Assembly: GCA_035317085.1 (NCBI GenBank)
Contig: DATHHS010000216.1
Span: 4,963 to 68,962 of the forward strand
Origin: Burkholderiales bacterium
GTDB lineage: Bacteria > Pseudomonadota > Gammaproteobacteria > Burkholderiales > SG8-39
Length of the DNA stretch: 64,000 bases
Direction: 5' to 3'
The notes below the pieces were generated by a model, which saw only the letters and a program-made list of their open reading frames with translations, was not told the DNA's origin and searched no databases. The position numbers and the translations under genes were made by a program. Position 1 is the stretch's first letter. Each line of letters starts with the position of its first letter. Positions 17,086 through 17,779 of the stretch are shown here, piece by piece.

Positions 17086-17097
17086 GTCACGTCTAAC
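17086..17097. repeat. Right copy of the 12-bp inverted repeat; cassette boundary core site (GTTAGAC on the minus strand)
   Basis: Plus strand GTCACGTCTAAC at 17086-17097. IntI homology begins at the next base, 17098. Confidence 0.85.
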
Positions 17098-17779
17098 TCA
17101 CGGCCGACGAGGTCCAGCGCATTCTTGCGACAATGCACGGCACTAAATGGCTGATGGCGAGTCTGCTCTACGGCGCGGGGCTTCGCTTGTGCGAGTGCCT
17201 GAAGCTGCGAATCAAGGACGTGGACTTCGGGTACGGGCAGATCATGGTTCGCGATGCCAAGGGCGGGAAGGACCGGATCACCCTGCTTCCGCAATCCGTT
17301 GTCGAGCCGCTGCGCGAGCATCTGGCTCGAGCCAGGAAATTGCATGAACGGGATGTCGCCGATGGATATGGCGATGTCGAGCTGCCCCATGCGCTCCGCG
17401 TCAAGTATCCGCGCGCGGCCTATGAATGGGGCTGGAAGTTCGTGTTTCCGTCGTACAAGCGATCGGTCGATCCGGAGACCGGCGTCATCCGTCGCCATCA
17501 TGTTTACGAAAATTATCTGATTCGCGGGGTCAAGCAGGCGGCACGCGATGCGGGCATCGTCAAGCACGTGAGCTGCCGCACCTTGCGCCATTCGTTTGCC
17601 ACCCATCTGCTGGAAACGGCTACGACATCCGCACGGTGCAGGAATTGCTCGGTCACGCTAGCGTCGAGACGACGATGATCTACACCCACGTGATGAACAA
17701 GGGCGGGCGCGGAGTCAAGAGCCCGCTCGATCGCCTCGAGCAGCGGCGCGCGGAGTACAGGGTTCAGGACGCGGCGTGA
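17098..17779 (+). pseudogene. intI: Integron integrase (IntI) remnant: about 100 N-terminal codons missing plus a 1-nt frameshift
   Basis: LTADEVQRILATMHGTKWLMASLLYGAGLRLCECLKLRIKDVDF...GGKDRITLLP...[25 protein letters not shown] (the IntI-specific insertion)...RRHH...[11 protein letters not shown], then a frame change in the A-run at 17614-17616 (GAAAC instead of GAAAAC) to [27 protein letters not shown] stop codon (TAA 17095-17097) lies immediately upstream in frame. Confidence 0.85.

What the first reader, a model, noticed from the sequence alone, without database searches (positions are those of the whole stretch)
17086..17779. intI is cut off exactly at a cassette core site (possible self-inactivating recombination) and carries an extra 1-nt frameshift
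IntI homology starts abruptly at 17098 (LTADEV..., corresponding to the ...RLPVVLT-x-x-EV region about 100 residues into known IntI proteins). It is directly abutted by GTTAGAC, the first bases of the brnTA cassette, with an in-frame TAA. The missing N-terminus, promoter region and attI are not found elsewhere in the islet. A recombination or deletion event between a cassette core site and a secondary site inside intI would produce exactly this junction. Separately, GAAAC at 17613-17617 replaces the expected GAA-AAC, which breaks HSFATHLLE|NGYDIRTVQ just before the catalytic region. The gene is therefore dead twice over.
Basis: partly seen in the sequence, partly recalled or inferred. Interest (0 to 1): 0.6.

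Follow-up and report, generated by a model that had tools for sequence, protein, structure and literature searches.

The report
Dead integron integrase cut at cassette
This is the dead remnant of an integron integrase gene whose front third, together with the integron's docking site, was deleted exactly at the point where the integrase normally cuts the first gene cassette; integrase pseudogenes are common, so this is an ordinary decaying chromosomal integron with an unusually clean breakpoint.

Summary
Window 17097-17779 (+) is the 3' two-thirds of an integron-integrase gene (TIGR02249, 331.8 bits against a cut-off of 265, profile positions 102-315). It lacks the first 114-116 codons and has a 1-nt deletion at 17613-17617. 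I found two further lesions: R->C (17190-17192) and H->R in the catalytic HxLRH motif (17577-17579), both at positions invariant in 109 homologues. An intact, syntenic orthologue exists (L002); its homology to the window starts exactly at 17097. No attI and no N-terminal coding segment occur anywhere in the 64 kb.

The cassette side of the junction is a complete cassette start (G|TTAGAC). It is complementary to the cassette's own R'' box and sits where homologous brnTA-like cassettes start in intact integrons.

So one deletion end coincides with the integrase cleavage point, which favours an integrase-initiated deletion. The intI-side site, however, is G|CA. It is not the GWT/GNT secondary-site consensus, not attI-like and not hairpin-forming, so self-inactivation is plausible but unproven.

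The cassette's attC is itself split by an IS1111-attC-type insertion sequence.

Verdict: a decayed chromosomal integron, a new member of a known kind, of modest interest.

The parts
17097..17779 (+). 5'-truncated, frameshifted integron-integrase pseudogene (delta-intI). Frame 1 runs from 17097 to about 17614 (LTADEV...HSFATHLLE). Frame 2 runs from about 17615 to 17779 (NGYDIRTVQ...MIYTHV...stop).
   Evidence: TIGR02249 331.8 bits against a cut-off of 265, profile positions 102-315. 93% amino-acid identity to the intact P0001 from its residue 117. DNA alignment to L001 and L002. blastn synteny with L002 starts at 17097.
17091..17097 (-). Deletion junction. Core site GTTAGAC on the cassette strand: G (17097) is shared with the intI Leu codon CTC, and TTAGAC (17096-17091) is the first six bases of the cassette. 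TAA at 17094-17096 is in frame with intI.
   Evidence: Sequence and translation. 12-bp perfect inverted repeat with the cassette's own R'' region: GTCACGTCTAAC 17086-17097 against GTTAGACGTGAC 16470-16481 (I6). Homologous cassettes in intact integrons start at the same place.
17612..17617 (+). Site of the 1-nt deletion (GGAAAC instead of GGAGAAC or GGAAAAC). It shifts the frame before the NGYDIRT...Y catalytic end.
   Evidence: Alignment A1, translations and codon survey in relatives. The same deletion is present in the second record L138.
17190..17192 (+). TGC (Cys) where 109 of 109 full-length homologues have Arg (LRLRECL -> LRLCECL).
   Evidence: Branch-specific change confirmed.
17577..17579 (+). 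CGC (Arg) replacing the invariant His of the HxLRH motif of tyrosine recombinases (SCHTLRH -> SCRTLRH).
   Evidence: That this His belongs to the catalytic RKHRHY set is established knowledge of the tyrosine-recombinase family.
16420..17096 (-). Body of cassette 1, a brnTA-like toxin-antitoxin cassette. It comprises a 66-nt 5' UTR, the toxin gene (17030-16737), the antitoxin gene (16759-16427) and the attC up to its 3' spacer. The cassette's last base, G, is at 15074, beyond the IS.
   Evidence: ORFs. BrnT_toxin 19.5 bits and CopG_antitoxin 23.7 bits, both below the Pfam cut-offs. Homologous two-gene cassettes sit in the arrays of intact integrons L038, L046, L026 and L009.
17037..17065 (-). 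Promoter-like site inside the cassette 5' UTR (-35 ATGACA, 17-nt spacer, TG-extended -10 TAGACT). It overlaps the AAGGCACAC box conserved in related brnTA cassettes.
   Evidence: Consensus scan (1 site found, 0.5 expected by chance) and UTR comparison. Function is inferred, not shown.
16420..16476 (-). 5' part of attC of cassette 1: R'' GTCTAAC, spacer CGCCG, L'' GCTCAAC, variable hairpin, L' GTTAGC, spacer CGGGAC.
   Evidence: Reconstituted 64-nt attC (16476->16420 plus 15074->15068) folds as R stem / unpaired spacer / L stem with bulged bases / terminal hairpin, -23.6 kcal/mol. The alternative reading ending at GTTAGCC leaves R'' unpaired.
15068..15074 (-). R' box (GTTAGGC) of attC of cassette 1, separated from the rest of the site by the IS. 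TTAGGC is the start of cassette 2.
   Evidence: Analogy with the attC sites of L050.
15075..16419 (+). IS1111-attC-type insertion sequence (1345 bp) inserted between the 3' spacer and the R' box of attC1. Transposase 15179-16183, 236-nt non-coding region downstream, subterminal inverted repeats GGGACTTCCCC (15084-15094) and GGGGAAGTCC (16405-16414).
   Evidence: NF033542 IS110-family RNA-guided transposase 364.9 bits. Pfam PF01548 and PF02371. Coordinates. A 78.5%-identical IS lies at the same position of an attC in L050. Family features taken from PMC11187229.
14355..15073 (-). Cassette 2: DUF6151 gene (14971-14432) followed by a degenerate attC (R''-like GTCTAAT at 14441-14435; no clear R'). 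The left limit is approximate. glnE ends at 14194.
   Evidence: PF19648 88.5 bits, gene call in L138, sequence. The folds are not significantly stable.

Best explanation
The window carries a fossil sedentary chromosomal integron lying between glnE and pilU.

Its integrase gene lost its first 114-116 codons, its promoter region and attI in a single deletion. Any cassettes that preceded the brnTA-like cassette went with them. The minimum size is about 490 bp (inferred).

The cassette-side end of the deletion is exactly the phosphodiester that an integron integrase cleaves: G|TT of the R' box, or AA|C on the + strand. I therefore think the deletion was started by an integron integrase acting at that cassette boundary, in one of two ways:
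(a) a complete off-target recombination between the attI or attC core and a non-canonical site in the integrase's own coding sequence, with the intervening DNA excised as a circle; or
(b) an abortive cleavage or nick at the core that became a break and was rejoined illegitimately inside intI, with 1 nt of microhomology.

The acting enzyme could have been the integron's own integrase or one supplied in trans.

The deletion stopped at a toxin-antitoxin cassette that has its own promoter. Losing that cassette would probably be counter-selected.

The dead gene then drifted only briefly: a 1-nt deletion, H->R in the catalytic motif, and R->C. An IS1111-attC element also split the attC of the remaining first cassette, so the two-cassette array is now immobile.

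Shown here: the identity of the gene, the exact breakpoint, the integrity of the cassette start, the absence of attI and the N-terminus, the intact orthologue, and the extra lesions. Inferred: that an integrase made the cut, the order of events, and the role of the TA cassette. The confidence of 0.55 applies to the integrase-initiated origin of the deletion; that the locus is a decayed chromosomal integron with a dead intI I hold at about 0.97.
For: Gene identity: TIGR02249 above its cut-off.

Breakpoint: homology to intact relatives starts at 17097 in tblastn, MAFFT and blastn. The base before it (A17096) differs from the G of the relatives, so the breakpoint is fixed to within 1 nt.

Genuine, complete cassette start:
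- core GTTAGAC at the junction;
- a 12-bp perfect complement to the cassette's own R'' region (I6);
- the circular-form attC folds with a full 7-bp R stem, -25.6 kcal/mol;
- brnTA-like cassettes in the intact integrons L038, L046 and L026 begin at GTTAxxC, 47-65 nt upstream of the toxin gene, with the same AAGGCACAC box.

Intact syntenic orthologue: L002 has a 353-aa intI and 80-88% nt identity from 17097 to 27075.

attI and N-terminus are absent from the 64 kb.

Real decay rather than sequencing error:
- two substitutions at columns invariant in 109 homologues;
- a nearly identical second record (k141 contig name; 2 differences in 12,546 bases) has the same junction and frameshift.

Recent death: branch-specific nonsynonymous:synonymous changes are 3:24, similar to the intact L001 at 5:22.

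Literature:
- IntI cleaves between A and C of the strand complementary to GTT and can recombine with secondary sites (PMC10127599).
- Excision from a site outside the original insertion point deletes pieces of genome (bioRxiv 10.1101/2022.09.11.507474).
- Only identity of the first nucleotide of the triplet is absolutely required in attI1 x attC recombination (PMC2811028). Here both partners have G.
- intI pseudogenes are common (PMC2426708, PMC12444791, PMC4889954).
- TA cassettes carry their own promoters and penalise excision (PMC13108822).
Against: - The intI-side site is G|CA in the nearest relatives and G|NA in 78 of 78 relatives. It never matches the GWT/GNT consensus.
- It has no similarity to the clade's attI (TGTCAACCAATTCAC G|TTAG).
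- It has no stable hairpin on either strand in the intact orthologues (z-scores -0.15 to +2.28).
- No second example of this junction was found. An exact-match scan of 241 million metagenome records gave 47 hits, all in unrelated genes. No other 5'-truncated intI abutting a core site turned up among the homologues inspected.
- The deleted DNA is gone, so the partner site (attI or an upstream attC) cannot be reconstructed.
- The case for integrase involvement rests on one coincidence of position (about 2 in 678 by chance, my estimate).
Confidence: 0.55

Rival explanations
1. Integrase-independent illegitimate deletion. Replication slippage or end-joining with 0-1 nt of microhomology removed attI and the 5' end of intI, and ended at the cassette boundary by chance. 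Selection may have helped, because it retains the TA cassette together with its promoter.
For: The intI-side end has no features of an integrase site. Only 1 nt (C17097) is shared at the junction. intI genes are commonly inactivated by 'large deletions' without any proposed integrase role (PMC12444791, PMC2426708). The need to keep the TA promoter (17037-17065) limits where viable deletions can end.
Against: The end lies exactly at the 1-nt interval that contains the IntI cleavage point. Even if viable ends are restricted to the 31 nt between the promoter-like site and the boundary plus any upstream DNA, this is an a-priori unlikely position (at most about 3-6%, or about 0.3% over a whole cassette; inference). 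Typical slippage deletions show at least 3-4 nt of microhomology, which is absent here.
Confidence: 0.3
2. Artefact. The junction is a chimeric join of a metagenome assembly, and/or the 1-nt deletion is a consensus or sequencing error.
For: The locus comes from a metagenome assembly: a near-identical ENA contig is named k141_..., 68.7 kb. Reads cannot be inspected here. If the ancestral codon pair was GAA-AAC, the frameshift lies in an A run.
Against: A 7-nt core is far shorter than the assembly k-mer, so it cannot cause a chimeric join. The contig runs continuously through cassettes, the IS and both chromosomal flanks. Two records differing at 2 of 12,546 bases share the junction and the frameshift. 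The gene carries two other unique changes at invariant positions. The surrounding long genes (876, 1791 and 728 aa) are not frameshifted.
Confidence: 0.05
3. Insertion rather than deletion. A cassette or array was inserted by an integrase into a secondary site inside an intact intI, splitting the gene. The 5' part was displaced to the far side of the array and later lost. A variant is an inversion between inverted sites.
For: Cassette insertion at secondary or attG sites is well documented (PMC10127599; bioRxiv 10.1101/2022.09.11.507474). The orientation of cassettes relative to delta-intI would be compatible.
Against: The far end of the array abuts glnE with no intI 5' sequence. No match to residues 1-116 and no attI exist anywhere in the 64 kb. 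The orthologue L002 shows the normal intI-attI arrangement at this chromosomal site. The target triplet is not GWT. This reading needs an extra deletion, so it is less parsimonious.
Confidence: 0.05
4. IS-mediated adjacent deletion, by the IS1111-attC element or by another IS that has since been lost.
For: An IS lies in the array (15075-16419). 38% of CALINs have a neighbouring IS, and ISs are proposed to break up integrons (PMC4889954).
Against: No IS end lies at the junction. The IS is 678 nt away and sits at its own specific target position (spacer|R'), not at G|TT. DEDD IS1111-type elements move by precise, RNA-guided site-specific insertion (PMC11187229).
Confidence: 0.03

Closest known systems
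intI pseudogenes of sedentary chromosomal integrons (Xanthomonas ilvD-linked integrons; the survey of Nemergut et al. 2008)
   Same: A chromosomal integron at a fixed locus with an intact orthologue in a relative. intI is inactivated by a frameshift plus a large deletion, and the cassette array is frozen afterwards (PMC2426708; PMC12444791).
   Different: Here the deletion end can be placed to within 1 nt and coincides with the G|TT of the first remaining cassette. I found no statement of such a coincidence in the papers read.
[quoted passage not shown] 2016, IntegronFinder)
   Same: Cassettes with attC sites, no functional intI and a recognisable IntI C-terminal remnant within 10 kb. That was the case for 15 of 279 CALINs (PMC4889954). 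An IS is nearby, as for 38% of CALINs.
   Different: The array is very small: two cassettes, one with an IS-split attC and one with a degenerate attC. Automated tools might therefore call neither attC.
Off-target (secondary-site / attG) recombination and imprecise excision by integron integrases
   Same: One partner is a bona fide core site cut at G|TT. The outcome is a deletion of flanking DNA, as reported for excision 'outside the insertion point' (bioRxiv 10.1101/2022.09.11.507474). Integrase-dependent rearrangements between core-like sites are described in PMC10127599.
   Different: The other partner is G|CA, not GWT/GNT, and lacks the flanking motifs. The target is the integrase gene itself. 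Nothing here shows that an integrase acted.
IS1111-attC group insertion sequences (Tetu & Holmes 2008; Post & Hall 2009; seekRNA work in PMC11187229)
   Same: DEDD transposase, non-coding region downstream of tnp, subterminal inverted repeats, and insertion at a fixed position inside an attC. A related copy sits at the same attC position in L050.
   Different: The element is only 78.5% identical (nt) to the L050 copy. It was not compared with named ISs. The seekRNA was not mapped: only 6-8 nt matches to the target were seen.

Membership tests
Integron integrase (IntI) | Scores above the curated cut-off of the integron-integrase-specific model (TIGR02249), which covers the IntI additional domain, and scores better than the Xer models | tested here: met
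   331.8 bits against a cut-off of 265, profile positions 102-315 of 315. XerD scores 121.6 bits and XerC 117.3 bits. The 120 best database homologues are 74-93% identical, and those that carry a source name are called 'integron integrase'.
Integron integrase (IntI) | Complete catalytic set of tyrosine recombinases (R-K-H-R-H-Y) in one reading frame | tested here: not met
   The His of HxLRH is Arg (17577-17579). The catalytic Tyr (MIYTHV) is out of frame after the 1-nt deletion. The N-terminal domain (114-116 aa) is absent.
Complete integron | attI site next to intI, on the cassette side | tested here: not met
   The clade's attI (TGTCAACTAA...TGTCAACCAATTCAC G|TTAG, derived from 16 relatives) has no match in the window. 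intI abuts the cassette directly.
Complete integron | Cassette array transcribed divergently from intI, each cassette ending in an attC | tested here: met
   Two cassettes lie on the minus strand. attC1 is reconstituted after removal of the IS and folds canonically. attC2 is degenerate.
attC site (cassette 1) | R''/R' and L''/L' boxes, unpaired central spacer, bulged bases, and R'' complementary to G plus the first six bases of the cassette | tested here: met
   A 64-nt site, -23.6 kcal/mol in the array form and -25.6 kcal/mol in the circular form. 12-bp perfect complementarity to the cassette start. No attC covariance model was available: Rfam has none and its scan found nothing.
Integrase secondary site / attG | 5'-GWT-3' (or GNT) triplet with cleavage after G | tested here: not met
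   The inferred ancestral triplet is G|CA. The preceding codon is GTN in 78 of 78 relatives, so the third base is always A. Consensus taken from PMC10127599 and bioRxiv 10.1101/2022.09.11.507474.
Integrase secondary site / attG | Identity of the first nucleotide of the triplet in both partners (the only absolute requirement found for attI1 x attC) | tested here: met
   Both partners have G on the cassette strand (C17097 on the + strand). Requirement taken from PMC2811028.
IS1111-attC group | DEDD (IS110-family) transposase, non-coding region downstream of tnp, subterminal inverted repeats, insertion at a fixed position in attC | tested here: met
   NF033542 364.9 bits. 236-nt non-coding region 3' of tnp and subterminal inverted repeats. 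The same spacer|R' position is used in L050. Comparison with named members was not possible (paper not held).
BrnT/BrnA toxin-antitoxin | Pfam BrnT_toxin (PF04365) and a BrnA-type antitoxin above the gathering score | tested here: inconclusive
   BrnT_toxin scores 19.5 bits against a cut-off of 34.5, although it covers profile positions 1-75 of 77. The antitoxin matches CopG_antitoxin at 23.7 bits against a cut-off of 28. The two-gene architecture recurs as a cassette in four relatives.

The most novel reading that the evidence does not exclude
The integron integrase destroyed its own gene. Acting at the attI or attC core in front of the TA cassette, it recombined with, or was aborted and rejoined to, a non-consensus site 345 bp into its own coding sequence. 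That event excised attI, Pc and its own N-terminus in one step. 'Suicide' off-target recombination would then be a direct, mechanistically specific route from a complete integron to a CALIN, with TA cassettes setting where such deletions can stop.
Probability: 0.4. Interest if true: 0.5.

Novelty: new member of a known kind. Interest (0 to 1): 0.3.

Why it matters
About a third of known intI genes are pseudogenes, and most CALINs have no recognisable integrase remnant (PMC2426708; PMC4889954). How integrons lose their integrase is usually put down to random mutation or IS activity.

This locus offers a breakpoint resolved to one nucleotide, with an intact orthologue for comparison. It suggests that the integrase's own cleavage at a cassette boundary can start the loss.

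If a systematic survey showed that truncated intI genes end at cassette boundaries more often than chance allows, it would link off-target integrase activity, so far demonstrated in the laboratory, to the natural decay of integrons. On its own, this single case is an ordinary decayed chromosomal integron.

Tried and rejected
1. Junction in other samples. An exact scan of metagenome contigs with AACTCACGGCCGACGAGGT (any core ending in AAC, followed by the intI sequence) gave 47 hits. All are unrelated genes encoding ...LTADEV.... No second instance was found, and nothing indicates that the hybrid site is reused.

2. Short homologues that seemed to start at the same V|LT position (P0074, P0089). 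Their contigs simply end there, at 0 and 8 nt upstream, so they are contig-edge artefacts. P0003 is also a contig-edge fragment. P0071 is a frameshifted intI, not a truncated one.

3. An attC-like fold at the intI breakpoint in the intact orthologues. None is more stable than shuffled sequence.

4. My first reading of GTTAGCC (16431-16425) as the R' box of the cassette's attC. Rejected: it is the L' box, and the true R' is GTTAGGC at 15074-15068, beyond the IS.

5. Residual intI homology upstream of 17097. The gapped MAFFT matches are not better than chance (3 of 14 when right-justified). The 66 nt belong to the cassette UTR, which is conserved in L038, L046 and L026.

6. Rfam scan of 14000-18000: nothing relevant.

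7. The GTDB genome scan gave 80 relatives at 64-80% identity, but not the source genome and no closer orthologue than L002.

8. Tetu & Holmes 2008 (PMC2447020) could not be read.

9. seekRNA-target complementarity in the IS non-coding region: only 6-8 nt matches, not conclusive.
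Full report
**What is there**

Window 17097-17779 (+) encodes, in two frames, the C-terminal two-thirds of an integron integrase.

- After repair of one frameshift the 227-residue translation scores 331.8 bits on TIGR02249 'integron integrase' (curated cut-off 265). It aligns to profile positions 102-315 of 315. 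XerC/XerD models reach only about 120 bits, and Pfam sees only the catalytic Phage_integrase domain.
- The listed database hits, the best 120 of 8000, are 74-93% identical. Those that carry a source name are called integron integrases, and most are 330-350 aa long with the N-terminal SAM-like domain PF13495.
- The refutation test 'best match to non-integron recombinases' therefore fails. The IntI call stands.

**Where the gene is cut**

- tblastn with five full-length homologues starts at 17097 (residue 117 of the 339-aa P0001) in four of them. The P0002 alignment extends back to 17043. All switch frame at 17615-17621.
- The DNA alignment with the two closest loci shows intact ...CCCACGGTG|CTCACGGCC... 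against window ...GTCACGTCTAA|CTCACGGCC....
- blastn against L001 and L002 also begins exactly at 17097.
- The base before the breakpoint (A17096) differs from the G of the relatives. C17097 could belong either to the Leu codon CTC or to the core site. The breakpoint is thus fixed to 17096|17097 or 17097|17098.
- 114-116 codons are missing.
- No match to residues 1-116 exists anywhere in the 64 kb (best E 0.076).
- I derived the attI of this integrase clade from 16 relatives as TGTCAACTAA..TGTCAACCAATTCAC G|TTAG. It has no match in the window.
- In L002 and L050 the attI crossover lies about 145-150 nt upstream of the intI start. At least about 490 bp were therefore deleted (inference).

**An intact orthologue exists**

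L002 (ENA contig_113032) carries a 353-aa intI. It is followed by the same pilU, pilT, yggS-like and proC genes, with 80-88% nucleotide identity to window 17097-27075. This is a sedentary chromosomal integron at a conserved locus, and the truncation is specific to the window's lineage. The most similar integrase (L001, 93% aa, 88% nt) sits in a different context, next to pgsA-uvrC.

**The cassette side is a genuine, complete cassette start**

On the minus strand the sequence reads G|TTAGACGTGACG..., followed by a 66-nt leader and two overlapping small genes.

- The toxin-like protein matches BrnT_toxin over the whole profile, but at only 19.5 bits (cut-off 34.5). Its partner matches CopG_antitoxin at 23.7 bits (cut-off 28). 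'brnTA-like' is therefore reasonable but sub-threshold.
- First line of evidence for the boundary: GTTAGAC is a GTTRRRY core.
- Second: GTTAGACGTGAC is perfectly complementary over 12 bp to the cassette's own R'' region, GTCACGTCTAAC on the cassette strand, at 16481-16470 (I6). This is expected if G+TTAGAC closes the R stem in the circular cassette, and the circular-form attC folds with a full 7-bp R stem.
- Third: homologous two-gene cassettes in the arrays of the intact integrons L038, L046 and L026 begin at GTTATAC, GTTATAC and GTTAGGC, 47-65 nt upstream of the toxin gene. They share an AAGGCACAC box with the window.
- A sigma-70-like promoter with an extended -10 lies in this leader (17065-17037). 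TA cassettes are known to carry their own promoters (PMC13108822).

**A correction to the anatomy**

The attC of this cassette does not end at GTTAGCC (16431-16425). That heptamer is the L' box.

- The true R' box is GTTAGGC at 15074-15068. It is separated from the rest of the site by a 1345-bp insertion sequence (15075-16419).
- The IS has an IS110-family DEDD transposase (NF033542, 364.9 bits), a 236-nt non-coding region downstream of tnp, and subterminal inverted repeats.
- These are the features of IS1111-type elements, some of which target attC sites (PMC11187229).
- With the IS removed, the 64-nt attC folds into the canonical R stem / unpaired spacer / L stem with bulges / terminal hairpin (-23.6 kcal/mol). 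The alternative reading leaves R'' unpaired.
- A 78.5%-identical IS sits at the same spacer|R' position of an attC in L050.
- Cassette 2 (DUF6151, 88.5 bits) follows. Its attC is degenerate. glnE ends at 14194.
- GC content drops from 0.65-0.70 in the flanks to 0.52-0.59 in the cassettes.

**The gene is dead several times over, but only recently**

Besides the truncation there are three further lesions:

- GGAAAC (17612-17617) replaces the GGAGAAC of the closest relatives. Relatives with E-N at this position use GAG-AAC/T (16) or GAA-AAC/T (10), so the lost base is either a G or one A of an A4 run.
- Arg->Cys at 17190-17192.
- His->Arg at 17577-17579, the His of the HxLRH motif.

Both substitutions hit columns invariant in 109 full-length homologues.

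Branch-specific codon changes are 3 nonsynonymous to 24 synonymous. This is like the intact L001 (5:22) and L002 (13:39). The lineage evolved under constraint for most of its history and died recently.

A second public record of the locus (ENA ERZ27267892, k141_1528254, 68.7 kb) differs at only 2 of 12,546 bases. It has the same junction, the same frameshift and the same IS. Long neighbouring genes are intact. I therefore consider the frameshift real, although reads were not available.

**How the truncation arose**

The + strand is the bottom strand of the cassettes. IntI cleaves between A and C of the strand complementary to GTT (PMC10127599). That is 17096|17097, exactly where homology to intI begins.

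A deletion end placed at random in a 678-nt cassette would fall in this 1-nt-ambiguous interval about 0.3% of the time (my estimate). The orientation is the one expected for excision between directly oriented sites. The retained product is [intI 3' part ...G]|[TTAGAC-cassette].

Integrase-dependent deletion of DNA beyond the original insertion point has been shown experimentally (bioRxiv 10.1101/2022.09.11.507474). [quoted passage not shown] Here both partners have G.

Several points count against a full site-specific recombination:

- The intI-side triplet is G|CA in the closest relatives.
- The preceding Val codon is GTN in 78 of 78 relatives, so the third base is always A and the site never matches GWT/GNT.
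- The site does not resemble attI.
- It does not fold.

I therefore keep two integrase-initiated variants open: (a) recombination with a poor secondary site, and (b) abortive cleavage at the core followed by illegitimate rejoining with 1 nt of microhomology. Together I give them about 0.55.

An integrase-independent deletion that ended at the boundary by chance gets about 0.3. Such a deletion may have been constrained by the need to keep the TA cassette and its promoter. Insertion or inversion scenarios, IS-mediated deletion and assembly artefact are each unlikely, for the reasons given under the rival explanations.

**Comparison with what is known**

Integrase pseudogenes are common:

- About one third of intI genes in the 2008 survey were pseudogenes (PMC2426708).
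- Most Xanthomonas integrons have intI inactivated by frameshifts, stops or large deletions (PMC12444791).
- 15 of 279 CALINs have an intI remnant within 10 kb, and 38% have a neighbouring IS (PMC4889954).

The locus is thus a new member of a known kind. Its one distinctive feature is that the deletion end can be placed at the integrase cleavage point. I found no second example in the data I could reach. The self-inactivation reading remains a plausible hypothesis that a genome-wide breakpoint survey or a recombination assay could test.

Noticed in passing
window 15075-16419 (+), flanks 15068-15074 and 16420-16476: A 1345-bp IS1111-attC-type insertion sequence splits the attC of the brnTA-like cassette between its 3' spacer (CGGGAC) and R' box (GTTAGGC). 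A related copy (78.5% nt) occupies the same position of an attC in L050. The non-coding region downstream of tnp (16184-16419), where a seekRNA would be encoded, shows only 6-8 nt matches to the target (CTAACG at 16282, CGGCACAA at 16378).
   Followed up: partly
window 16425-16431 (minus-strand GTTAGCC): This core-like heptamer looks like the end of the cassette but is the L' box of the attC. Reading it as R' mis-sets the cassette boundary by the length of the IS.
   Followed up: yes
window 17037-17065 (-); L038 about 5470-5530, L046 and L026 near 7950-8010: brnTA-like cassettes from four integrons share an AAGGCACAC box in their short 5' leaders. In the window it overlaps a promoter-like site (ATGACA-17 nt-TG-TAGACT). 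It may be the cassette's own promoter or operator.
   Followed up: partly
L132-L136 (for example L132 398-1428): Another integrase of this clade (P0071) is split into 137-aa and 212-aa overlapping ORFs by a frameshift. The same form occurs in six contigs from different samples, next to a LexA-like peptidase S24 gene, recA and recX. It is either a recurrent, real intI pseudogene or a programmed or tolerated frameshift.
   Followed up: no
L001 (intI 267-1286) compared with L002 and window 17097-27075: The integrase most similar to the window's (93% aa, 88% nt) lies next to pgsA-uvrC. The syntenic orthologue L002 is less similar (90% aa, 83% nt). This suggests either relocation or transfer of the integron platform, or differing rates between lineages.
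   Followed up: no
window 14355-14447 (-): The attC of the last cassette (DUF6151) is degenerate. Its R''-like box is GTCTAAT (the cassette start predicts GCCTAAC). An L''/L' pair (GTCCCAG / CTGAGGGAC) is present, but there is no recognisable R'. About 160 nt of unassigned sequence follow before the glnE stop at 14194.
   Followed up: partly
window 11737 and 17929; L137/L138 (ENA ERZ27267892 k141_1528254): A public 68.7-kb metagenome contig matches the window over 12,546 bases except for two single-base differences (G/A at 11737, A/G at 17929). It is the same population, or nearly the same assembly.
   Followed up: partly
window 14200-15100 and 16200-17100: Cassette DNA has 52-59% GC against 65-70% in the flanking chromosome. 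This is consistent with a foreign origin of the cassettes.
   Followed up: no
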